Shown: piece by piece, positions 3,107 to 41,199 of the stretch
Position numbering within the stretch: position 1 is the stretch's first letter
How the letters are laid out: each line of letters begins with the position of its first letter
Origin: Eubacteriales Family XIII. Incertae Sedis bacterium
GTDB taxonomy: Bacteria > Bacillota > Clostridia > Peptostreptococcales > Anaerovoracaceae
Assembly (NCBI GenBank): GCA_031266025.1
Contig: JAISBV010000105.1
Location: forward strand, 5,986 to 69,985
DNA length: 64,000 bases
Direction of reading: 5' to 3'
Notes under the pieces: model-generated
Databases searched by the model: none
Told to the model about the DNA's origin: nothing
The model's input: the letters and a program-made list of their open reading frames with translations, nothing else
Translations under genes and position numbers: made by a program

Positions 3107-6100
3107 GTGGTCAGAAGGTTGTACGTCGAGAAGAAAGAGGGTTTTGACACGGAAGCGCGCTCCTTGCGGCGCGCGCTTACGGAAAACCTGCATATCGCGG
3201 GTATAGAGAGACTCAGGGTTCTGAACCGCTACGACATCGAAAATATAGACGACGAAACATACGAAACCGCGAAACGGGGCGTTTTTTCCGAGCCGGCTGC
3301 GGATGTGGTTTACGAAGAAGACGCGCCGTTGGGCGGCGCGTTTGTCTTGCGCGTTGAATACCTGCCCGGTCAATACGACCAAAGGGCCGATTCCGCCGCG
3401 CATTGTATAAGGCTGATCAACGCGGCCGCCTCGCCTACGGTTCGTTTCGCGCGCGTAATAGCCATATACGGCAAGCTTTCTCATATGGAGACAGAAGCCG
3501 TGAGGCGCTTTGCCGTAAATCCCGTCGATTCTCGCGAGGCTGCGTCGGAGAAGCCCGATACGCTCGTTCTCAGTCTCGAATCGCCGCCGCCCGTGGCCGT
3601 TGTCGGCGGGTTCGTCGCGTTTACGGCCGATGAGCTTGAGATGTTCAGACAGAACGGGGATTACGCGATGAGCGCAGAGGACATGCTGTTCACGCAGCGC
3701 TATTTCGCGGATACCGAGCGCAGGGATCCGACCGTGACGGAGCTCAAGGTCATAGACACGTACTGGTCAGATCATTGCAGACATACTACGTTCAACGCAA
3801 GCTTCGCGAACGTCGGTTTCGACGACGGGCCTTTCGCCGATTTGGTTCGGAAGGCCTTTAATAAGTATTTGAACGTCAGGAACGAGGTGTACGGGGAAGG
3901 AAGCGAGCGTCCCGTGAGTCTTATGGATATCGCCGTTATCTGCGCGAAATACCTGAAAGGCCGAGACTTGCTCCCCGACCTTGACGAGTCGGATGAAGTC
4001 AACGCGTGCAGCATTCGCGTAAAGGCGGACAATGACGGCGCCGAAGAGGATTGGCTCGTCATGTTCAAGAACGAAACGCACAACCACCCGACGGAGATAG
4101 AACCGTTCGGCGGCGCCGCCACCTGTCTCGGCGGTGCGATTCGCGATCCTCTGTCCGGGCGCGCCTACGTATATCAGGCGATGCGCGTCACGGGAAGCGG
4201 CGATCCGCGCGCGGACATAGGCGATACCTTGCCGGGCAAGTTGCCGCAGCTGCAGATCACGCGTGACGCCGCCAAGGGATACAGCTCATACGGAAATCAA
4301 ATAGGCCTTTCCACAGGGCTTGTCGCCGAGATGTACGACGACGGCTATATCGCAAAAAGGCTTGAGATCGGCGCGGTGATAGGCGCGGCGCCCGCGGCCC
4401 ACGTCAGGCGCGGAGTTCCGGCGCCGGGCGACGTGATCCTGCTTGTCGGGGGAAGAACCGGCCGCGACGGCTGCGGCGGCGCAACGGGTTCTTCCAAGGA
4501 GCATACGGAAGAATCTCTCTCCGCTTGCGGCGCGGAGGTTCAAAAGGGAAATCCGCCCGCGGAAAGGGATATACAGCGGTTGTTTCGCCGTAAGGACGCG
4601 GCGCATTTGATCAAGCGCTGCAACGATTTCGGCGCGGGCGGCGTATCCGTGGCCGTAGGCGAGCTTGCGGCCGGTATAGACGTCGATCTTGACGCTGTTC
4701 CCAAGAAATATGAGGGTCTTGACGGCACGGAGCTGGCCATTTCGGAATCGCAGGAGCGTATGGCGGTTCTTGTCACAGGCGCGGACGCGGCGCGCTTCAT
4801 CGAACTTTCGGAAGAGGAAAACCTCGAGGCCGCCGTCATAGCGAGGGTGACGGATACGGGGCGCTTTCGCATGTATTGGCGCGGCGACGCTATACTCGAT
4901 CTGCGGCGTGATTTTTTGGACAGCGACGGCGTGCGGCGGAGTGTGGATGTATTCGTCGAAAACAGGAACGCCGGCGCGTATTTTGACGCGGATGGAGGCC
5001 GCAGACCGGCCGATTTTCTTGACGATCTGAACTGTTGCGGTCAGCGGGGTTTGACGGAATGTTTCGACAGCACGATAGGCGCGGGAACGGTGCTTATGCC
5101 GCTCGGCGGACTGTGGCAGGAAAGTCCCGCCTTGGGCATGGCCGCCAAACTGCCTCTTACTTCGGGCGAAACGCTCACGACCACGCTGATGACTTTCGGC
5201 TGCGACGTTAAGTTATCCTTGGCGAGTCCTTTTCACGGCGCGCTGTACGCCGTCGTGGATTCTGTTACAAAGATCGTCGCTATGGGCGGCGACCGCAAGG
5301 GCGTCAGGCTGAGCTTTCAAGAATACTTTGAAAAATTAGGCCAAAACCCCAAACGTTGGGGCAAACCCTTTTCCGCGCTGCTCGGCGCGCTCGAAGCGCA
5401 GCTTGCGCTCGAAATACCCGCGATAGGCGGGAAGGACAGCATGTCGGGCAGCTTTATGAACCTTGACGCGCCGCCGACGTTTGTCTCGTTCGCAGTGGGC
5501 GTGACGAGCGCGGAACGGGTGCTGTCGCCCGAGTTCAAAAAGCCCGGCAGCAATCTCGTACTTGTCGACGCGGAGCGCGACGCGGAAATGATGATAGACT
5601 TTGCGCAATACAGGCGCAACATGGATGTTGTAACGGCCTTGACCGCAGAGGGGCGGATACTGTCCGCTTCCGTGATCGGCTGCGGCGGCATATTCATCAC
5701 CGCCGTAAAGATGGCGGCCGGCAATCGCATCGGGGCGCGTCTTTTGAACGTCACGGACGCTGAATTGCGCTTGCCGCGCTATGGCGCCCTGATCCTCGAA
5801 ATAGACGAAGAATTCGACGCGGACGCGTTGCTTGGCGGCGTTCTTTACAGGCGCATAGGCGTAACGACGGCGCTTGCGGAGATATCCGCCGCGCATACCG
5901 CCGATGCGGATGTACCCGCGCTCAGGATGGGATTCGGCGAGATATTTTCAAGATGGGAAAGCCCGCTCGCGGACGTATTTCCTATGACGACGCCCGAACA
6001 ACCTGCGGAGAGCCTTAAAACGCTCAGATTCGATAAACGTTCATCCGTGCGTCCCGCCGTTCGCGCCGCGAGACCGCGCGTGCTGATTCCCGTGTTTCCG

Positions 6101-6868
6101 GGTACGAATTGCGAAGCGGACTCAAAGAAGGCTTTTGAAAAGGCCGGCGCGTCTGTTTCTCTTCATATTTTGCGAAATCTGACGCCGGAGATACTCGAAG
6201 TCTCGATACGCGAGCTTGCGCGCGGCATAGGTGAAAGCCAGATCGTCATGATACCGGGCGGTTTCAGCGGCGGCGACGAACCGGACGGTTCGGCCAAATT
6301 TATAACGGCCGTTTTCCGCAATCCCGCAGTTAAAGAGGCCGTGGCGGAGCTGCTCGAGCGGCGCGGCGGCCTTATGCTCGGCATATGCAACGGATTTCAA
6401 GCCCTCGTGAAGCTTGGGCTTCTGCCATTCGGTGAGATACGGGACGGCGCGGACGACAGTCCGACGTTGACATACAACAGCATAGGCAGACACGTTTCGC
6501 GCATGGTGCGGACGCGCGTGGCTTCGACGCTCTCCCCGTGGCTTTTCGGAGCGGCGCCCGGAGACGTACACACACTGCCCGTTTCACACGGCGAAGGGCG
6601 TTTCACGGCGCCCGAATCATTGCTTCGCGACATGGCTGATAAAGGACAAATAGCGACTCAGTATGTGGATTTCGACGGGAAGCCCACGAGCGATTTTCGT
6701 TTCAATCCGAACAATTCCGTCATGGCCATAGAGGGCGTATGCTCGCCGGACGGCAGGATACTCGGCAAAATGGCGCATTCGGAACGAATAGGGCCGCATC
6801 TGTACAAAAATGTGCCCGGCGATTATGATCAGAAATTGTTTGTGTCGGGCGTAGCGTATTTTGAGTGA
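3107..6868 (+). CDS. purL: Phosphoribosylformylglycinamidine (FGAM) synthase, single-chain large form
   Basis: 1253 aa. AIR-synthase-like repeats (DHCRHTTF, NHPTEIEPFGGAATCLGGAIRD). C-terminal glutaminase with GICNGFQAL and HGEGRF. Confidence 0.95.
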   Translation: MVRRLYVEKKEGFDTEARSLRRALTENLHIAGIERLRVLNRYDIENIDDETYETAKRGVFSEPAADVVYEEDAPLGGAFVLRVEYLPGQYDQRADSAAHCIRLINAAASPTVRFARVIAIYGKLSHMETEAVRRFAVNPVDSREAASEKPDTLVLSLESPPPVAVVGGFVAFTADELEMFRQNGDYAMSAEDMLFTQRYFADTERRDPTVTELKVIDTYWSDHCRHTTFNASFANVGFDDGPFADLVRKAFNKYLNVRNEVYGEGSERPVSLMDIAVICAKYLKGRDLLPDLDESDEVNACSIRVKADNDGAEEDWLVMFKNETHNHPTEIEPFGGAATCLGGAIRDPLSGRAYVYQAMRVTGSGDPRADIGDTLPGKLPQLQITRDAAKGYSSYGNQIGLSTGLVAEMYDDGYIAKRLEIGAVIGAAPAAHVRRGVPAPGDVILLVGGRTGRDGCGGATGSSKEHTEESLSACGAEVQKGNPPAERDIQRLFRRKDAAHLIKRCNDFGAGGVSVAVGELAAGIDVDLDAVPKKYEGLDGTELAISESQERMAVLVTGADAARFIELSEEENLEAAVIARVTDTGRFRMYWRGDAILDLRRDFLDSDGVRRSVDVFVENRNAGAYFDADGGRRPADFLDDLNCCGQRGLTECFDSTIGAGTVLMPLGGLWQESPALGMAAKLPLTSGETLTTTLMTFGCDVKLSLASPFHGALYAVVDSVTKIVAMGGDRKGVRLSFQEYFEKLGQNPKRWGKPFSALLGALEAQLALEIPAIGGKDSMSGSFMNLDAPPTFVSFAVGVTSAERVLSPEFKKPGSNLVLVDAERDAEMMIDFAQYRRNMDVVTALTAEGRILSASVIGCGGIFITAVKMAAGNRIGARLLNVTDAELRLPRYGALILEIDEEFDADALLGGVLYRRIGVTTALAEISAAHTADADVPALRMGFGEIFSRWESPLADVFPMTTPEQPAESLKTLRFDKRSSVRPAVRAARPRVLIPVFPGTNCEADSKKAFEKAGASVSLHILRNLTPEILEVSIRELARGIGESQIVMIPGGFSGGDEPDGSAKFITAVFRNPAVKEAVAELLERRGGLMLGICNGFQALVKLGLLPFGEIRDGADDSPTLTYNSIGRHVSRMVRTRVASTLSPWLFGAAPGDVHTLPVSHGEGRFTAPESLLRDMADKGQIATQYVDFDGKPTSDFRFNPNNSVMAIEGVCSPDGRILGKMAHSERIGPHLYKNVPGDYDQKLFVSGVAYFE

Positions 6869-6888
6869 AGGTTTAGGAGATCATAGAT

Positions 6889-7377
6889 ATGAAAGCAGCC
6901 ATTGTGATGGGCAGCAAGTCCGACTACCCGGTAGCAGAACGGACGGAGCGCATATTGAAAACCTTCGGCGTCGAGTATGAGACGCGCGTGATATCGGCGC
7001 ACAGAACGCCCCGCGCGGCCGAATCCTTTGCCTCGGGCGCCGAAGGGAACGGCATAGAGGTCATTATAGCGGCTGCAGGCAAGGCGGCGCATCTGGGCGG
7101 CGTTATAGCCGCTTACACGCCCGTACCCGTAATAGGACTCCCGGTCAAATCATCTACGTTGGACGGGCTTGATTCGCTGCTTTCCATGGTGCAGATGCCG
7201 AAGGGCGTTCCGGTCGCCACTGTAGCGATAGACGGGGCGGAAAACGCGGGTCTGCTCGCCGTGCAGATACTGTCGGTTAAGTACGGGGAGCTCAGGACGC
7301 GCATGAAGGCGTACAAGGAGGATATGGCGAAGGATGTAGCCGATGCCGACGCGGCTTTTTCGCGAGGTGAGCATTGA
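6889..7377 (+). CDS. purE: 5-(carboxyamino)imidazole ribonucleotide mutase (class I-like PurE)
   Basis: MGSKSD, ISAHRTP and [10 protein letters not shown] motifs. 162 aa. Confidence 0.9.
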
Positions 7378-7402
7378 CCGGTTACAGATAAGGAGATTTC
7401 AG

Positions 7403-8107
7403 ATGGAAAAAAGGGAGCAGCTTTACGAAGGCAAGGCGAAAAAAGTATTCAGAACAGACGATCCCGAGCTTCTGATCGTTTCGTACAAGGATGACGCGAC
7501 CGCGTTCAACGGACAAAAGAAGGGCCAAATCGCGGACAAGGGCGTCGTGAACAACATCATGTCGAATATCATATTCGGCATACTTGCGGACGCCGGCGTG
7601 CCTACCCACCTCGTCAAGCAGCTTTCGGATCGCGAAACCCTTGTAAAAAAAGTAACGATACTGCCGCTCGAAGTCATAATACGCAATGTGGCGGCCGGTT
7701 CCTTTTCTAAGCGTTACGGTGTGGATGAAGGCAGCCTTTTGGCAAAGACCGTACTGGAATTTTCATATAAAAACGACGAGCTCGGCGATCCGCTTATAAA
7801 CGACGATCACATACTTGCGCTCGGGCTCGCGACGGAGCGGCAGCTTGCGCAGGTTCGCGCTTACGCGTTCAAAGTGAACGAGGTCATGAAGGAATTTTTC
7901 CTTACCCGAGGGCTCAAGCTGATTGATTTCAAGATTGAATTCGGGCTCTGCGACGGAGAGATTATACTGGCCGATGAGATTTCGCCTGATACCTGCCGTC
8001 TCTGGGATGTCAAAACCAACGAAAAGATGGATAAGGACAGATTTCGCCGCGATCTCGGCAATGTCGAAGAAACGTACCGGGCCGTGCTTGATCGCGTGCG
8101 GGCTTAG
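7403..8107 (+). CDS. purC: SAICAR synthase
   Basis: Internal ATG at 7403 lies behind AAGGAG. N-terminus MEKREQLYEGKAKKVF, plus LPLEVIIRN and DEISPDTCRLWD. Confidence 0.92.
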   Translation: MEKREQLYEGKAKKVFRTDDPELLIVSYKDDATAFNGQKKGQIADKGVVNNIMSNIIFGILADAGVPTHLVKQLSDRETLVKKVTILPLEVIIRNVAAGSFSKRYGVDEGSLLAKTVLEFSYKNDELGDPLINDDHILALGLATERQLAQVRAYAFKVNEVMKEFFLTRGLKLIDFKIEFGLCDGEIILADEISPDTCRLWDVKTNEKMDKDRFRRDLGNVEETYRAVLDRVRA

Positions 8108-35835: not shown

Positions 35836-35978
35836 ACAGCGTTTTAATATTCTTTGCCAAAGAGTTGCAATTGAGATTGCAAAGGATTTTTCGGGTAAAA
35901 AAACAAATCGCCTTGCCGAAAGGTTCGCATATAGCGATAAAAGTACGAATCTTGCTAAAAAAAGGAGTTTATCATATC

Positions 35979-36971
35979 GTGTCACAATTGATTGACAATT
36001 CATCACAAACGTTGGAACAAGCATTGAAAAACACTCTCCCGCAAACGAACAAAGTTGATGTTCTTACTGCCTATTTCTACTTTTCCGGGTTCTCGCTGTT
36101 GGCCGGCGAACTCAAAGACAAACATATCCGCATACTCGTGGGGAAATCCATTGACCCTGACGCTGTTGTCGAACTCAGCGCGGCTATCAAGTCATACCCA
36201 AATGTTGACCTCAATACCTACCAAAACAAAAAATATTACTCCCTGAACCGTTCTCAAAGGAAGAAAGAATACACGGAAAGTTTCATACGCCTGTTTAACA
36301 AGTCATCGTTGTCAGAGTCTTTTGACAGCACGGTGAGCCAAACAATGCAGACGATTTTCGAGAACAAACTGCGTGACGGCACACTTGAAATACGTATGAC
36401 TTCCGAGGACAATCACGCCAAAACCTTTATTCTCACCAACAAGCCGGAGTTCTCCGCGAACGGTGATTCTAAAGGCGCTGTTTTTATGGGTTCGTCTAAT
36501 TTCACATATTCCGGACTGACCGGACAAGGCGAGCTTGACCATCGGTTCAGCGACAATCAAGACTATGATAAGTATCTGCAACATTTTAATAAACTTTGGA
36601 ACGATGCTAACGCCATCGACATACAAACGAGCGGCAGTAACGACGATTTCATCAGAGAAATAGAAACGCGGCTGTGGCTGCACTCAAAGCCTGACCCGTA
36701 TAAGGTGTTTGTGCGGATTTTGCACGAACTGTATTATCAAACAGACGAGACCGACCTTAAAACGCCCGGTTCCATATCCGGCGGTAAGTTTACAAACTTA
36801 CGTTACCAATTGGATGCAATCAGAAGCGGCATAGACTGTATTAACAAGAATAGCAGTAAGGCTCATCGGCAGAATTATGTTCTGTTGGTTTCTCAAAGAG
36901 AAAAAAAGCGCGGATGGTGTTGCTCTGATCCCCGACAAAATATTATCGCAACAAGCCGTAACGGGAAATGA
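35979..36971 (+). CDS. PLD/HKD-nuclease domain fragment. This is the 5' part of a frameshifted PLD-methyltransferase fusion and is probably a pseudogene.
   Basis: GTG behind AAAGGAG. N-terminus SQLIDNSSQTLEQALKN...VDVLTAYFYFSGFSLLAGELKDKHIRILVGKS. HKD motif NHAKTFIL...GSSNFTYSGL. After about 36835 the frame reads junk until the stop. Confidence 0.7.
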   Translation: MSQLIDNSSQTLEQALKNTLPQTNKVDVLTAYFYFSGFSLLAGELKDKHIRILVGKSIDPDAVVELSAAIKSYPNVDLNTYQNKKYYSLNRSQRKKEYTESFIRLFNKSSLSESFDSTVSQTMQTIFENKLRDGTLEIRMTSEDNHAKTFILTNKPEFSANGDSKGAVFMGSSNFTYSGLTGQGELDHRFSDNQDYDKYLQHFNKLWNDANAIDIQTSGSNDDFIREIETRLWLHSKPDPYKVFVRILHELYYQTDETDLKTPGSISGGKFTNLRYQLDAIRSGIDCINKNSSKAHRQNYVLLVSQREKKRGWCCSDPRQNIIATSRNGK

Positions 36972-39120
36972 CACATACTATCACAATGTGCTTGAATCGC
37001 TGTTCTTCGAACTGCTCAACACCAAAGCAAGACGCAGAAAAGACAAATTCAAAAGCGAAGGTTATTCAGAAATTCCATATCTTAACGGCGGCTTATTCAG
37101 TCCGCAAGTAGGCGACCACTACAAATTCAGCCAGATCACGGACAGCGGCGAGTATGGCATTGTTACCGTTCCTGACGACTGGTTTAAGTCACTGTTCGGT
37201 GTTTTGGAAAGTTACAGCTTTACGGTAGATGAGAACACTGCCTATGATGTCGAACTTTCAATTGATCCTGAAATGCTGGGGCGCATATTTGAAAACCTGC
37301 TTGCTGAAATAAATCCTGAAACAGGTGAGAGCGCGAAAAAAAGCACAGGCAGTTTCTATACCCCACGCGATATCGTTGATTATATGGTAGACACGAGCCT
37401 GTTTCATTATTTACGAGATAAAACCAAAATCGCGGACGACACGCTGAACGCGCTTATTAGTTACGGAAAAGAAGATGATACCGATTATCCGTTGACTGCC
37501 GGTGAGAATGAGAATATTGTTGACGCTCTGTCAACGTTAACAATAATCGACCCGGCATGCGGTTCCGGCGCGTTCCCAATCGGTATTTTGCAAAAGACAG
37601 TGTATGTTTTACAGCAGGTTGACCCAAACGCCAAACTTTGGGCGGCAAAGCAGTACAGCAGCGTAACGTCTGCGGAATTGAAGCAGGAAATCAAACAGAA
37701 AGAGGAGCGCGGCTTATTTGACTATATCCGTAAGCTCGGAGTTATCCGCGAGTCCATATTTGGCGTGGATATTCAGACTATCGCGACTGAAATAGCTAAA
37801 CTGCGCTGCTTCCTGTCACTCATAGTAGAGGAAAACGTTGAAGACGATGAACCGAATCGCGGCATACAGCCCTTGCCGAATCTTGATTTTAAGTTCATTT
37901 CCGCCAATTCTCTCGTGCGTTTGGAGGACAAATCAGAATCAACAGGCCAAATGTCGATTTTTGAGGATATTCAGCATATCGACGAGTTAAAACGTATTCG
38001 TGATGAATATTTCACCGCCGACGCCGATGAACGTATTGAACTTCGTCAAGAATTTGATAGTACTCAAAAGGAAATGTTGATGAAGACAATTCAAAATTAC
38101 GGGAAAACAGCAAGCAACAGATATTCTTTGCTTTATTCGTGGAAACCTTTTGAAAACGAGTCTACAACGTGGTTTGACCCGGAGTGGATGTTTGGAACAA
38201 ATAATTTTGACATTGTTATCGCGAATCCTCCTTATATTCACTTGGAGCATATCAAGGAGCAGTCTGCGTATTACAGGACACTCAATTTCAGTGTTTATGA
38301 GGCTCGCGGTGACATCTACGCATTGTTTTATGAGAAGGGCGTGCAACTTCTGAAAGATAATGGTTTCCTTTGCTACATTACCTCTAATAAGTGGATGCGC
38401 GCGGCATACGGAAAATCGCTCCGCCGCTTCTTTGCAGACTTTACAAACCCGATACAACTAATCGACTTTGCCGGACAGCAGATTTTTGACGCTACCGTCG
38501 ATACGAATATACTTTTGCTGTCAAAGTCAGCCAATCAACAGGCAACCAACGCCGTAATTGTCAAAGACAATGACAGTATATCGAATATGCGCGTTTATGT
38601 TAAGCAAAACAGCGTAACAATTCCGTTTACCGCATCCGAGAGTTGGACTATACTCTCGCCGATCGAGCAGAGTATCAAGCGCAAAATCGAGGCAGTCGGC
38701 ACTCCGTTGAAAGATTGGGATGTAAAAATTAACTACGGAATCAAGACAGGCTGCAATGAAGCATTTATTGTTGATGGTGCCACCCGCGCCCGTCTTATAG
38801 CTGCCGATCCAAAGAGTGCAGAGATTATACGACCGATTTTGCGGGGCAAGGATATTAAGCGGTATGGGTATGACTTCAATGGTAAGTATCTTATTGCCTT
38901 ATTCCCGTCACAGAATTATGACATTGGTAACTACTCCGCCGTTAAAGAATATCTTCTTTCTGCTGAATGGTCAGATAATGTGCCATACGGACATGGCATG
39001 GAAAGATTGGAACAAACAGGCAAAAAATATACTATTGACGGAATAAGCTTTACAGCACGCAAAAAGACAGGTAACAAGTGGTTTGAAACGCAAGACCAAA
39101 TAAGTTATTGGGTCGTATAA
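36877..39120 (+). CDS. Eco57I/MmeI-type gamma-class N6-adenine DNA methyltransferase with a TaqI-like target-recognition domain. This is the 3' part of the frameshifted fusion and its C-terminus appears truncated.
   Basis: The frame is open from 35 nt upstream (TVLTRIAVRLIGRIMFCWFLKEKK). IPYLNGGLF, GSFYTPRDIV, motif I DPACGSGAF, motif IV IANPPYI. TaqI_C-like block GIKTGCNEAFIV...ILRGKDIKRY. Ends right after WFETQDQISYW. Confidence 0.85.
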   Translation: MFCWFLKEKKSADGVALIPDKILSQQAVTGNDTYYHNVLESLFFELLNTKARRRKDKFKSEGYSEIPYLNGGLFSPQVGDHYKFSQITDSGEYGIVTVPDDWFKSLFGVLESYSFTVDENTAYDVELSIDPEMLGRIFENLLAEINPETGESAKKSTGSFYTPRDIVDYMVDTSLFHYLRDKTKIADDTLNALISYGKEDDTDYPLTAGENENIVDALSTLTIIDPACGSGAFPIGILQKTVYVLQQVDPNAKLWAAKQYSSVTSAELKQEIKQKEERGLFDYIRKLGVIRESIFGVDIQTIATEIAKLRCFLSLIVEENVEDDEPNRGIQPLPNLDFKFISANSLVRLEDKSESTGQMSIFEDIQHIDELKRIRDEYFTADADERIELRQEFDSTQKEMLMKTIQNYGKTASNRYSLLYSWKPFENESTTWFDPEWMFGTNNFDIVIANPPYIHLEHIKEQSAYYRTLNFSVYEARGDIYALFYEKGVQLLKDNGFLCYITSNKWMRAAYGKSLRRFFADFTNPIQLIDFAGQQIFDATVDTNILLLSKSANQQATNAVIVKDNDSISNMRVYVKQNSVTIPFTASESWTILSPIEQSIKRKIEAVGTPLKDWDVKINYGIKTGCNEAFIVDGATRARLIAADPKSAEIIRPILRGKDIKRYGYDFNGKYLIALFPSQNYDIGNYSAVKEYLLSAEWSDNVPYGHGMERLEQTGKKYTIDGISFTARKKTGNKWFETQDQISYWVV

Positions 39121-39179
39121 GTTCGGCAGTTAAATTGCGTTCGCCGCCATCGCAGATCGAAGTATCAATTGTTGGAGGA

Positions 39180-39791
39180 TTATTGCGTTGAAATAGATTC
39201 GCGTTTAATGAACGCGTCAACTGTCATGCGGTCAACTTTCAAAATCCTTGCTATTTGCGTCTTGGGAACCTCGTGCAAAAGCAAGTCGCGTATGAAATCC
39301 TCTTTACCGGACAGCTTAACTTTTGACGATTTACTGCCTATAGGTCTACCTAATACAACGCCTTCGGCACGTTTACGAGCGAGTGCTTCTTTGGTTCGTT
39401 GGCTGATCAGATTGCGCTCTATTTCGGCGGACAAACCGAATGCGAAAGCAAGAACCTTGCTCTGTATGTCATCGCCCAACCGATAGTTATCTTTTATCGT
39501 CCACACGCGGCAGTTTTTGTTCATACAAATATTCAAGATGTCCATAATCATAAACAGCGTGCGGCCTAAACGTGATAGCTCGGCGCATATAATCAGGTCT
39601 CCGTTTTTAACCTTGCTGAGCAGTTCACCGAGTTTACGTTTGTTGTAATTCTTGGTGCCGCTGATTGTTTCCTCAATCCATCCGTTTATGTCGATGCCGT
39701 TGTTCTCCGCGAATTTATTGATTTCGTACCGTTGGTTCTCAACCGTCTGCTTGTCGCTGCTGACGCGAATATAACCGTAAATCATTTGCAT
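39180..39791 (-). CDS. Small serine recombinase (resolvase/invertase family)
   Basis: YGYIRVSSDKQ nucleophile motif, ELSRLGR, and a C-terminal HTH (KTQIARILKVDRMTVDAFI). 203 aa. Confidence 0.9.
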   Translation of the reverse strand: MQMIYGYIRVSSDKQTVENQRYEINKFAENNGIDINGWIEETISGTKNYNKRKLGELLSKVKNGDLIICAELSRLGRTLFMIMDILNICMNKNCRVWTIKDNYRLGDDIQSKVLAFAFGLSAEIERNLISQRTKEALARKRAEGVVLGRPIGSKSSKVKLSGKEDFIRDLLLHEVPKTQIARILKVDRMTVDAFIKRESISTQ

Positions 39792-39955: not shown

Positions 39956-40795
39956 ATGGATCAAATCAAAGATTTGAAAATACAGGACATATCTCACTTC
40001 GATGTTGAAATAAGCGCGCTGTCGGGTAAAAGACGCAAGGTATATGTCAAAGACAAGCACAAGAAATACATGCTCAAGTTGGCCGACATAAAACAGAACG
40101 GAGAGCAAATACCCTCGCATATATCGGAATATACATCCTGCAAGTTGATTGATGCACTGGGCTATTCTGTACAAGAGGTCTGTTTGGTTACATGGCATGA
40201 AAATGAGGCGGTCTTGATAGAGCTTTTTGACGAGCAGATTGTAACATTCACCGGATTTGGGGATTCAACCCTTGAAAGCGGCAATTTGGAATACGATTTG
40301 GACAGTATGGCGGATGGGTTGGTAAGCGCAAAATTCGCGGAAAACCCCGTATCTTTCTTATGGAATACATTTATTCTCGACAGTTTTGTGTGCAACTTGG
40401 ACAGGCATCCGAATAACTGGGGATTTTTCAGAAAAGGCGACGTTTATTCGCCGGCGCCGCTGTTTGATTTGGGAAATTCTTTGTTCTCTGTAAACGCGAA
40501 CAAATTAAATAAAAATACGGATGTAAATAAATTGATAGAGTTGTACGGTAAATCGGCAATACTTTACAGGGGCGAGCGCTTGGGATTCAGAGATGTATTG
40601 CGCGCGCGCGATAATGAACATTTGCAAAAAGCGTTGGCAGTCTTTAAGACGAAATTAAACGCTGCGGACACAAAGAAAGAATTGCGCGATATTTTGGCAA
40701 ATGTTTTGTTGCTAAATAAAGAATACGATAATTATTGTGAGTTCTTGGAGCAGATGATTGACGCGCAGACGAGGTTTTTCGAGGAGACGCTATGA
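39956..40795 (+). CDS. HipA_C-like serine/threonine kinase consisting of the kinase core only
   Basis: Gly-rich loop ALSGKRRKVYV, lysine block KYMLK, catalytic NLDRHPNNWGF (D149), Mg-binding SPAPLFDLGNS (D171). 279 aa. Confidence 0.8.
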   Translation: MDQIKDLKIQDISHFDVEISALSGKRRKVYVKDKHKKYMLKLADIKQNGEQIPSHISEYTSCKLIDALGYSVQEVCLVTWHENEAVLIELFDEQIVTFTGFGDSTLESGNLEYDLDSMADGLVSAKFAENPVSFLWNTFILDSFVCNLDRHPNNWGFFRKGDVYSPAPLFDLGNSLFSVNANKLNKNTDVNKLIELYGKSAILYRGERLGFRDVLRARDNEHLQKALAVFKTKLNAADTKKELRDILANVLLLNKEYDNYCEFLEQMIDAQTRFFEETL

Positions 40796-41199
40796 AAACC
40801 AAACCTACTGAATTAAAGAGGGACACTTTGTATATAGGTCTTTATACGAACGGTAAGATTTTCAGAATAGGAACATTTTCTTTGCTTCTTGAAAGCAACG
40901 GCAAACACATATATGAATTCGATATCGACGAAGAACGTTACAATGAAGCTATGAAGATGACGGACAGGATAATACCGGGTTTCAATCCAAAGAACGGATG
41001 GAAACAACGGCACGACAAAGAGATGCAATTTGTATACGAACGTACATTTCATCCGCAGCGTCAGGATATGGAAGATATTTTGAAGCCTTACAGTATGACG
41101 CCCAAAGAATACAATAAATGGAATTTTCTTAAAAAGAGCAAAGGAAAATGTTATCAAGATGATTGGCGTTTGACAGATGTTTTTGAGGAAACCTATTGA
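40792..41199 (+). CDS. Small protein coupled to the kinase, possibly a HipS-like / HipA N-terminal-subdomain homologue
   Basis: ATGA overlap with the kinase stop. LYIGLYTNGKIFRIGTFSLLLESNGKHIYEFDIDEERY and HPQRQDMEDILKPYSMTPKEYNKWNFLKKSKGKCYQDDWRL resemble HipA N-terminal segments at motif level only. Confidence 0.45.
   Translation: MKTKPTELKRDTLYIGLYTNGKIFRIGTFSLLLESNGKHIYEFDIDEERYNEAMKMTDRIIPGFNPKNGWKQRHDKEMQFVYERTFHPQRQDMEDILKPYSMTPKEYNKWNFLKKSKGKCYQDDWRLTDVFEETY

What the first reader, a model, noticed from the sequence alone, without database searches (positions are those of the whole stretch)
35979..39120. PLD(HKD)-nuclease fused to an Eco57I/MmeI-type N6-adenine methyltransferase and TRD, broken by a frameshift near 36835
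**Frame 0 (35979 onward).** It encodes an HKD phospholipase-D-type nuclease module (NHAKTFIL...GSSNFTYSG). Its N-terminus (LIDN..., AYFYFSGF..., IRILVGKS) is the kind usually seen in PLD-helicase restriction proteins.

**The break.** At about 36835 the meaningful reading switches to frame +1. Frame 0 gives SSKAHRQNYVLLVSQREKK... until a stop at 36971. Frame +1 gives TVLTRIAVRLIGRIMFCWFLKEKK...IPYLNGGLF...DPACGSGAF...NPPY...TaqI_C-like TRD. Removing a single base around 36837 would create one ORF of roughly 1,080 aa.

**Why it matters.** A single-chain restriction-modification enzyme with a BfiI/NgoFVII-style PLD nuclease, rather than PD-(D/E)xK, is an uncommon architecture.

**Alternative.** The segment just before the break (LRYQLDAIRSGI) looks like the lead-in to a helicase motif I. 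A helicase module may therefore have been deleted at this point.

The A7 run at 36901-36907 is not the lesion, because frame +1 reads sensibly across it.
Basis: partly seen in the sequence, partly recalled or inferred. Interest (0 to 1): 0.6.

Follow-up and report, generated by a model that had tools for sequence, protein, structure and literature searches.

The report
Deletion-scarred restriction-modification operon remnant
This is not one fused gene broken by a single-base frameshift. It is the wreck of a known two-gene DNA-defence operon (nuclease-helicase gene plus methyltransferase gene) that lost about 3 kb across the gene boundary and a second piece at its 3' end, so it is ordinary gene decay.

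Summary
The sequence features are real. There is a PLD/HKD nuclease module at 35979-36852, an Eco57I-type N6-adenine methyltransferase core from 36853, and a change of reading frame between them.

The cause is not a single-base indel. In relatives the two parts belong to two adjacent genes that overlap by 4 nt:
- R: a ~1098-aa PLD-SNF2 helicase.
- M: a ~1100-aa methyltransferase with a TaqI_C target-recognition domain.

Window 35980-36852 aligns to the first 873 nt of R, and 36853 onward aligns from nt 628 of M in the same relative. A 3,046-bp deletion therefore joins R codon 291 to M codon 210 out of frame.

M is also cut at codon ~962 (39115). About 20 nt of an inverted spare specificity cassette survive there, next to an intact serine invertase (39180-39791, minus strand). 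That invertase is the orthologue of the one that flips such cassettes in relatives.

The missing parts are nowhere else in this 82%-complete metagenome-assembled genome.

The intact system is widespread. It was catalogued in 2023 (PMC9881135), and this scan has found it before on other DNA. Its alternative (a deleted helicase) is half right.

The parts
35961..35966 (+). Shine-Dalgarno-like AAGGAG, 12 nt before the GTG start of R'
   Evidence: Sequence read directly. The start position agrees with the N-termini of the homologues (MSRLINN / VSQLIDN).
35979..36852 (+). R': the first 291 codons of a PLD(HKD)-SNF2 helicase gene. It covers the PLD nuclease domain, a linker and the Q-motif lead-in, and ends just before helicase motif I.
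   Evidence: Pfam PLDc_2 E=1e-10. It is 68% identical to residues 1-293 of the 1098-aa P0121, which carries SNF2-rel_dom and Helicase_C. blastn aligns it to L005 4709-5581 without gaps. ORF1 residues 1-292 align to R residues 1-292.
36411..36515 (+). Single HKD-type catalytic motif (NHAKTFILTN ... GSSNFTYSG)
   Evidence: Coordinates. The motif is conserved in P0121-P0123.
36850..36855 (.). Deletion junction 36852|36853. It joins R codon 291 to M codon 210, and 3,046 bp are missing relative to L005.
   Evidence: The two blastn segments abut exactly: window 35980-36852 = L005 4709-5581, and window 36853-38753 = L005 8628-10528. The flank comparison shows at most a few nt of microhomology.
36853..36971 (+). 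Out-of-frame tail of ORF1: 39 codons of methyltransferase DNA read in the wrong frame, ending at stop 36969-36971
   Evidence: Translations. Homology to R stops at ...CINKN.
36853..39115 (+). M': codons ~210-962 of an Eco57I/Cj0031-like N6-adenine methyltransferase-TRD gene. It holds part of the helical domain, the whole catalytic domain and the first part of the TRD. The first in-frame ATG is at 36877.
   Evidence: 79% identity to residues 210-962 of the 1100-aa P0002. Pfam Eco57I E=7.5e-39. PADLOC REase_MTase_IIG E=1e-129 to 1e-130. Motif I is at 37549-37575 and NPPY at 38224-38235.
38812..38876 (+). IR1: the copy inside M of the inverted repeat used for cassette inversion in relatives (encodes ...AEIIRPILRGKDIKRYGYDF)
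   Evidence: The window stretch matches the inverted cassette of L001-L003 in reverse (12000-11936, 85%) and of L006. IR1 pairs of 85 nt and 345 nt are present in L001 and L006.
39105..39115 (+). 3' breakpoint of M'. Only the first ~10 nt (TTATTGGG..) of the second shufflon repeat, IR2, remain.
   Evidence: IR2 in L001 is TTATTGGGACGATTTTTCTAAGC.... The side-by-side comparison is. tblastn homology to P0002 ends at residue 962, which is window 39111.
39109..39130 (-). ~20-nt remnant of the outer edge of the lost inverted TRD cassette. It is the reverse complement of the start of IR1 and encodes ..AELIRP on the minus strand.
   Evidence: Inverted repeat I9, 38817-38834 / 39111-39128. There are 19-20 nt matches at 95% to the IR1 start of M in L017, L051, L054, L064 and L086, in reverse orientation. 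Comparison. This is short, so the evidence is moderate.
39180..39791 (-). Intact small serine recombinase (invertase), 203 aa, orthologue of the shufflon invertase of relatives
   Evidence: Pfam Resolvase E=5.9e-35. 86-91% aa identity to the resolvase next to the inverted cassettes in L001 and L006. The YIRVSSDKQ active-site stretch is present.

Best explanation
**What the region is.** Window 35979-39791 is the decayed remnant of a horizontally acquired, phase-variable restriction-modification module. In intact relatives the module has four parts:
1. R, a ~1098-aa protein with an N-terminal single-HKD PLD nuclease and an SNF2-type ATPase.
2. M, a ~1100-aa protein with an N-terminal domain of unknown fold, a helical domain, a gamma-class N6-adenine methyltransferase and a TaqI_C-type TRD. 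M overlaps R by 4 nt.
3. One or more silent inverted copies of the TRD tail.
4. A small serine invertase that swaps these tails.

**What happened here (shown).**
- A 3,046-bp deletion removed R codons 292-1098 and M codons 1-209. R' and M' now abut out of frame at 36852|36853.
- A second deletion removed M codons ~963-1100 and nearly all of the inverted cassette. About 20 nt of the cassette edge remain beside the invertase gene.

**Consequence (inferred).**
- No ATP-dependent restriction is possible.
- The 330-aa R' product is a PLD domain with a 39-residue nonsense tail.
- M' lacks its own ribosome-binding site, its N-terminal third and the end of its TRD. It is most likely inactive even though its catalytic motifs are intact.
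- The absence of further stops or frameshifts suggests the deletions are recent.

**How the intact ancestor worked (inferred from the domain set).** M reads and methylates a target. At unmethylated targets R is recruited, translocates DNA with its SNF2 motor, and cuts when two single-HKD PLD domains pair. The invertase periodically changes the target specificity.
For: - **R' identity.** ORF1 residues 1-293 match residues 1-293 of 1,07x-1,13x-aa proteins. 72 of the 73 hits of at least 800 aa carry the helicase part. Pfam finds PLDc_2, SNF2-rel_dom and Helicase_C in P0121, P0122 and P0128.
- **M' identity.** The best homologues are 1,040-1,110 aa. The window matches only residues 210-962 of P0002.
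- **Two adjacent genes in relatives.** R (4708-8004) and M (8001-...) are separate genes in L001-L006. R lies directly upstream on the same strand in 63 of 69 genome loci with enough upstream DNA.
- **Exact deletion junction.** blastn segments abut at 36852|36853 and map 3,046 bp apart in L005. Flank and protein comparisons agree.
- **Shufflon in relatives.** Inverted M C-terminal cassettes and an 86-91% identical resolvase are present, with IR1 and IR2 inverted repeats. The window breakpoint lies at the IR2 edge, and a reverse-complement IR1 remnant follows it.
- **Missing parts absent.** They are not found elsewhere in the assembly.
- **Foreign island.** GC is 0.40-0.45 against 0.50-0.60 in the flanks. 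The locus was not found in the 4 same-genus genomes searched.
- **Literature.** Type II RM CDS homologous to Cj0031, with an adjacent PLD+SNF CDS, are listed among confirmed programmed-inversion loci (PMC9881135).
Against: - An assembly artefact, or a deletion variant coexisting with intact copies, is therefore not formally excluded.
- The cassette remnant at 39109-39130 is only ~20 nt long.
- M' remains an uninterrupted 747-codon ORF with intact AdoMet and NPPY motifs, so residual methyltransferase activity is not excluded.
- dS is saturated, so relaxed selection could not be tested.
Confidence: 0.88

Rival explanations
1. One reading: a single-chain PLD-nuclease/MTase/TRD restriction enzyme (~1,080 aa) inactivated by a one-base frameshift near 36835. 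It would be intact after resequencing or a one-base repair.
For: A -1 shift anywhere in 36835-36968 gives one long ORF. The summed length of ~1,077 aa resembles the homologue lengths. Two database proteins (P0124, P0242) do join a PLD domain to an Eco57I-type MTase in one frame.
Against: - The junction flanks map 3,046 bp apart, in two different genes of relatives.
- No homologue of either half has this join. 72 of 73 long PLD relatives carry the SNF2 helicase.
- All ~1,100-aa MTase relatives have a different, non-PLD N-terminal 209 aa.
- P0124 and P0242 join at other points. P0124 lacks MTase motif I, and P0242 retains helicase motifs I/Ia. They look like further independent deletions.
- The 3' end of M' is also truncated.
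Confidence: 0.02
2. Assembly artefact or population mixture: the organism carries an intact R-M-shufflon locus, and the metagenome assembler produced the short joins or assembled a minority deletion variant.
For: The genome is a fragmented metagenome-assembled genome (162 contigs, 82% complete). Invertible loci with repeats are hard to assemble. The 3' break lies at a shufflon repeat edge. The only database record of the 747-aa protein is this contig (P0001: 1 member, 1 contig).
Against: - The 5' junction has no repeat that could mislead an assembler, only a few nt of microhomology.
- None of the ~4.5 kb of missing sequence is present on any other contig of the bin.
- Both joins are clean and lie inside an otherwise continuous 80-kb contig.
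Confidence: 0.07
3. A functional reduced system: after the deletions, M' (translated from ATG 36877) survives as a solitary adenine methyltransferase, and/or R' acts as a free PLD nuclease. Both would be kept by selection.
For: Both remnants are free of further stops or frameshifts. The catalytic motifs are intact. The amino-acid divergence on the window branch (dN 0.061 for M, 0.048 for R) is no higher than in intact relatives. R' keeps its start codon and an AAGGAG.
Against: - M' lacks a recognisable ribosome-binding site before 36877 and starts inside ORF1.
- It lacks the N-terminal 217 residues, including most of the DUF7814/MmeI_hel helical domain (one search shows only profile positions 119-164 of 228).
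- It ends in the middle of the TaqI_C domain, at residue 962 of a domain spanning 870-1019.
- dS is saturated, so no selection test was possible.
Confidence: 0.05

Closest known systems
Two-gene PLD(HKD)-SNF helicase + Cj0031-like 'Type II' RM methyltransferase loci with programmed TRD inversions (Milman, Yelin & Kishony, NAR 2023, PMC9881135). PADLOC models: REase_MTase_IIG for M and candidate 'HKD+Snf2' (C3a139) for R.
   Same: - Both remnants are clear orthologues: 68% aa identity (R') and 79% (M') to members.
- Gene order and strand are the same.
- The serine invertase is the same (86-91% aa).
- The IR1 sequence inside M is the same.
   Different: - The window copy lacks the whole SNF2 helicase.
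- It lacks the first 209 codons and the last ~140 codons of M.
- It lacks the inverted spare cassette, apart from ~20 nt.
Type IIG single-chain restriction-modification enzymes (Eco57I, MmeI, BpuSI, Cj0031)
   Same: The methyltransferase core has the same layout: a helical spacer, a gamma-class N6-adenine MTase with NPPY, and a C-terminal TRD. Pfam hits are Eco57I, MmeI_Mtase and MmeI_hel.
   Different: - In this family the only recognisable nuclease, the PLD domain, sits on a separate helicase protein.
- The N-terminal 210 aa of M have no Pfam hit at E<=10.
- A confident model of that domain (pLDDT 87) has no PDB fold match below E=0.01.
- The apparent PLD-MTase fusion in the window is a deletion scar.
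Type ISP enzymes (LlaGI, LlaBIII) and class 1 DISARM DrmD/DrmMI; 'Type-2 BREX-related' HKD-Swi2/Snf2 + N6-MTase systems (PMC12839542)
   Same: The functional parts list of the intact ancestor is the same: nuclease, SF2/SNF2 translocase, adenine methyltransferase and TRD. PADLOC gives DrmD, BrxH and DrmMI/PglX as weaker hits.
   Different: - Type ISP enzymes are one polypeptide with an Mrr-type nuclease.
- DISARM and BREX-related systems have further core genes (DrmA/B, DUF499, DUF3780), which are absent from the relatives' loci.
- Scores are far below the family cut-offs.
PLD-family restriction nucleases (BfiI, NgoFVII/NgoAVII, SauUSI)
   Same: There is a single HKD motif per chain (HxK...GSxN), which implies that the active site forms by pairing two copies. 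SauUSI likewise couples a PLD domain to a helicase.
   Different: No direct Pfam match of the window protein to RE_NgoFVII. The window gene is a member of the SNF2-fused clade, not a stand-alone or TRD-fused PLD enzyme.

Membership tests
PLD-SNF2 helicase + Cj0031/Eco57I-like MTase R-M module with invertible TRD (PMC9881135) | The upstream gene encodes an N-terminal PLD domain followed by an SNF2-type helicase | tested here: not met
   The PLD domain is present. The helicase is entirely absent: homology to R stops at residue 292, just before motif I. The sequence identity shows this is a truncated orthologue, not a different family.
PLD-SNF2 helicase + Cj0031/Eco57I-like MTase R-M module with invertible TRD (PMC9881135) | The downstream gene encodes a ~1,100-aa Eco57I-type N6-adenine MTase with a TaqI_C TRD | tested here: not met
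   Only residues ~210-962 are present. The Eco57I domain is met. TaqI_C is not detected in the window ORF, although it is detected in P0002.
PLD-SNF2 helicase + Cj0031/Eco57I-like MTase R-M module with invertible TRD (PMC9881135) | R lies directly upstream of M on the same strand | tested here: met
   The remnants keep this order and strand. 63 of 69 relatives show the same arrangement.
PLD-SNF2 helicase + Cj0031/Eco57I-like MTase R-M module with invertible TRD (PMC9881135) | An inverted silent TRD cassette bounded by inverted repeats, plus an adjacent serine invertase | tested here: inconclusive
   The invertase is intact and orthologous. IR1 inside M is present. Only ~20 nt of the cassette remain.
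Type IIG single-chain R-M enzyme | Nuclease, methyltransferase and TRD naturally encoded in one polypeptide | tested here: not met
   PLD and MTase derive from two genes that lie 3,046 bp apart at this junction in relatives. The M N-terminal domain has no nuclease signature.
Type IIG single-chain R-M enzyme | Gamma-class N6-adenine MTase motifs (AdoMet-binding D/E-x-x-x-G-x-G, and NPPY) | tested here: met
   DPACGSGAF at 37549-37575 and NPPY at 38224-38235. Eco57I E=7.5e-39.
Type ISP (LlaGI-like) single-chain nuclease-helicase-MTase | All modules in one reading frame in intact members | tested here: not met
   In relatives, R and M are separate ORFs that overlap by 4 nt in different frames.
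Simple frameshift pseudogene | The flanks of the frame change are contiguous in intact homologues (an indel of 1-2 nt) | tested here: not met
   The flanks correspond to L005 positions 5581 and 8628.
PLD-superfamily nuclease | HxK(x)n...GSxN catalytic motif within a PLDc_2 fold | tested here: met
   PLDc_2 E=1e-10, 42 bits against a cut-off of 27. The motif is at 36411-36515. Catalytic activity was not tested.

The most novel reading that the evidence does not exclude
Large deletions across the R/M gene boundary recur in this family (the window, P0124 and P0242). They could be a natural route by which single-chain PLD-methyltransferase enzymes arise. Alternatively, the window's M' could still act as a solitary adenine methyltransferase next to a live invertase.
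Probability: 0.04. Interest if true: 0.45.

Novelty: new member of a known kind. Interest (0 to 1): 0.2.

Why it matters
**Value for annotation.**
- A tempting 'novel PLD-type single-chain restriction enzyme' is shown to be a deletion scar. It should not be repaired by one base, nor entered in catalogues as a new architecture.
- The case is a clean example of how a defence operon is disarmed: the nuclease motor and the specificity tail are removed, while the invertase is left behind.
- Adding up ORF lengths can mislead. Here 330 + 747 aa came close to the homologue length by chance.

**A side result on the intact family.** The only recognisable nuclease is the PLD domain on the helicase protein. 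The N-terminal domain of the methyltransferase is an orphan fold.

Tried and rejected
- **Search for the missing pieces elsewhere in the genome.** tblastn with the N-terminal 225 aa and C-terminal 150 aa of P0002 found nothing beyond the window locus.
- **Intact locus in close relatives.** It was not found in the 4 same-genus genomes or in the other family and order genomes searched. Only two short weak DNA hits turned up.
- **dN/dS to test for relaxed selection.** dS was saturated in all comparisons, so the test was uninformative.
- **Recombinase-mediated origin of the 3' deletion.** This was considered because the left break sits at the IR2 edge and the right break at the IR1' edge. IR2 and IR1' are in inverted orientation, however, and recombination between them would invert rather than delete. 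A microhomology ('GG') deletion is the simpler explanation. This is not resolved.
- **Nature of the M N-terminal domain.** There was no Pfam hit at E<=10. The AlphaFold model had pLDDT 87, but the best Foldseek PDB hit was E=0.011 with TM below 0.25.
- **Stand-alone PLD proteins with the same ends as ORF1.** The short hits (P0130, P0160, P0162, P0173, P0195, P0246) all run on into helicase motif I, so they are contig-end fragments.
Full report
**1. What is in the sequence**

Two ORFs on the + strand fill the finding.

- ORF1 runs from the GTG at 35979 to the stop at 36969-36971. An AAGGAG lies 12 nt upstream of the start.
- ORF2 runs from the ATG at 36877 to 39120. Its frame is open back to 36835.
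- ORF1 has a PLD domain (Pfam PLDc_2, E=1e-10). ORF2 has Eco57I (E=7.5e-39), N6_Mtase and weak MmeI_Mtase, MmeI_hel and DUF7814 matches.
- The HKD-type motif is at 36411-36515. MTase motif I (DPACGSGAF) is at 37549-37575 and NPPY is at 38224-38235.
- The A7 run at 36901-36907 encodes the KEKKS that all homologues share, so it is not a lesion.

**2. The two halves come from two different genes**

*The methyltransferase half.* A search with the ORF2 frame returned thousands of relatives. The closest are 1,040-1,110 aa long and 60-79% identical.

- Their first ~209 residues (MKLLELDKGYSKANF...YQEF) have no counterpart in the window. Homology begins at AVRLIGRIMFCWFLKEKKS.
- tblastn of P0002 against the whole assembly matches only residues 210-962. 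These correspond to window 36853-39111.

*The PLD half.* An exhaustive HMMER search with ORF1 found 703 relatives.

- The full-length ones are ~1,070-1,130 aa and match ORF1 residues 1-293 with their own residues 1-293.
- They are PLD-SNF2 helicases, with SNF2-rel_dom, Helicase_C and ResIII domains.
- After ...LRYQLDAI(K/R)xGIDCI(R/N)KN they continue NGVIIADVVGLGKS, which is helicase motif I.
- 72 of the 73 hits of at least 800 aa carry the helicase.
- Short hits are contig-end fragments that also run into motif I.

**3. In relatives these are neighbouring genes**

- On the contigs that encode P0003, P0008, P0009 and P0017, a 1098-aa PLD-SNF2 gene (locus 4708-8004) is followed by the methyltransferase gene starting at 8001. 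The two overlap by 4 nt and are in different frames.
- Among 80 loci from species-representative genomes, 69 have at least 3.4 kb of DNA upstream of M. In 63 of these, R lies directly upstream on the same strand.

**4. The break is a 3,046-bp deletion**

- blastn gives two abutting segments: window 35980-36852 = L005 4709-5581, and window 36853-38753 = L005 8628-10528. L006, L004 and L001 give equivalent results.
- The junction is 36852|36853 (...AAGAATA|GCAGTAAGG...), with at most a few nucleotides of microhomology.
- The deletion removed R codons 292-1098 and M codons 1-209.
- R and M are in different frames and 3,046 is not a multiple of 3, so the join is out of frame. ORF1 runs 39 nonsense codons into methyltransferase DNA.
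- A one-base 'repair' would create a chimera that no relative possesses. The sum 330+747, close to 1,080 aa, is coincidental.

**5. The 3' end is also deleted**

*What relatives carry downstream.*
- In L001-L003, L006 and several genome loci, M is followed by an inverted copy of its last ~230-310 codons and a ~200-aa resolvase.
- Inverted-repeat pairs flank the exchangeable parts. IR1 is 85-345 nt long and encodes AEIIRPILRGRDIKRYGYEF. IR2 is ~40 nt long and reads TTATTGGGACGATTTTTCTAAGC.
- This is the gene-altering programmed inversion catalogued for Cj0031-like Type II RM genes with an adjacent PLD+SNF gene (PMC9881135).

*What the window retains.*
- It has IR1 inside M' at 38812-38876.
- M' homology stops at 39111-39115, after only the first ~10 nt of IR2.
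- The next ~20 nt (39109-39130) are the reverse complement of the start of IR1. This is the outer edge of a lost inverted cassette.
- Sixty nucleotides further on is the stop codon of an intact 203-aa serine recombinase on the minus strand (39180-39791). It is 86-91% identical to the relatives' invertase.
- Both invertase orientations occur in relatives: 5 on the plus strand and 3 on the minus strand.

A second deletion of roughly 1.2-1.5 kb therefore removed the last ~140 codons of M and the spare cassette. Pfam TaqI_C spans residues 870-1019 in P0002, so the TRD is cut through its middle. TaqI_C is accordingly not detected in ORF2.

**6. Context**

- The segment from about 35.8 to 41.3 kb has GC 0.40-0.45, against 0.50-0.60 in the flanks.
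- It lies between an SLH-domain protein gene and a 3-hydroxyisobutyrate-dehydrogenase-type gene.
- It also carries a HipA-like kinase pair, matching PADLOC candidates PDC-M03A/B.
- The locus was not found in the 4 same-genus genomes or in the other relatives searched.
- Together these point to a small foreign defence island in decay.

**7. How it works, or no longer works**

*The intact ancestor (inferred from domains).*
- M recognises and methylates a target.
- At unmethylated targets, R translocates DNA with its SNF2 motor.
- R cuts when two single-HKD PLD domains pair, by analogy with PLD nucleases and with Type I, ISP and III collision models.
- The invertase switches specificity.

*A side test on M.* Its N-terminal ~210 aa show no nuclease signature.
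- There is no Pfam hit at E<=10.
- There is no D...ExK pattern among the conserved residues.
- The model is confident (pLDDT 87), but no PDB fold match is better than E=0.011.
- PLD is therefore the only recognisable nuclease of the system.

*The window copy.*
- Restriction is abolished because the motor is gone.
- M' has no ribosome-binding site before ATG 36877, lacks 217 N-terminal residues and ends mid-TRD. It is most likely inactive, although this is inferred rather than shown.
- No further stops or frameshifts exist in either remnant, and amino-acid divergence is not raised. The deletions therefore look recent.

**8. Caveats**

- The genome is an 82%-complete, 162-contig metagenome-assembled genome.
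- I rate an assembly artefact as unlikely. The 5' junction has no repeat, and none of the missing ~4.5 kb appears on any other contig.

**9. Novelty**

- The intact system is widespread.
- It was catalogued in PMC9881135 and is modelled in PADLOC, as REase_MTase_IIG for M and the candidate 'HKD+Snf2' for R.
- Earlier notes of this scan describe intact examples on other DNA.
- The window holds a broken member. Decay is recurrent in the family:
  - P0124 and P0242 are other R-M deletion fusions.
  - L005, L039, L042 and L082 show other truncations.
- Interest is low.

Noticed in passing
window 38817-38834 and 39111-39128; invertase at 39180-39791 (-): The start of IR1 inside M' and the ~20-nt remnant of the lost cassette form an 18-nt inverted repeat 276 nt apart, next to an intact invertase. 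If the crossover site lies within these 18 nt, the 276-bp segment could still flip, with no productive outcome.
   Followed up: partly
proteins P0124 (483 aa) and P0242 (879 aa): These are two other database proteins that join this PLD domain in frame to an Eco57I-type MTase, at different points. P0124 joins PLD residue ~222 to M residue ~554. P0242 joins PLD plus helicase motifs I/Ia to M at about residue 367-420. They look like independent R-M boundary deletions, so this kind of decay recurs.
   Followed up: partly
L004:8001-8666 and alignment A1 (the N-terminal ~210 aa of M in relatives, deleted in the window): This is a conserved domain (E60, R71, R102, S104, R126, G132, RFSVEVVNK). It has no Pfam match, a confident AlphaFold model (pLDDT 87) and no PDB fold match. 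It is an orphan domain of a very common defence methyltransferase and may be the docking site for R.
   Followed up: partly
window 39956-41199 (+): A HipA_C-like kinase (279 aa) is translationally coupled to a 135-aa partner. They match the PADLOC candidates PDC-M03A and PDC-M03B. This is part of the same low-GC island and is already the subject of another note of this scan.
   Followed up: partly
L006:8001-12259: In this relative, M is split into 843-aa and 260-aa ORFs at the point where a 345-nt IR1 begins. This may be a frameshift or an inversion intermediate captured by the assembly.
   Followed up: no
L014, L056 (genome-contig loci): There are two (L014) and three (L056) tandem same-strand copies of the M-type methyltransferase gene, with no R match between them.
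   Followed up: no
L005:10559-14107: The relative closest in DNA has its M gene cut at residue 849, with IS-type transposase genes (HTH_Tnp_1, rve) nearby. This is another independent 3' truncation of the specificity tail.
   Followed up: no
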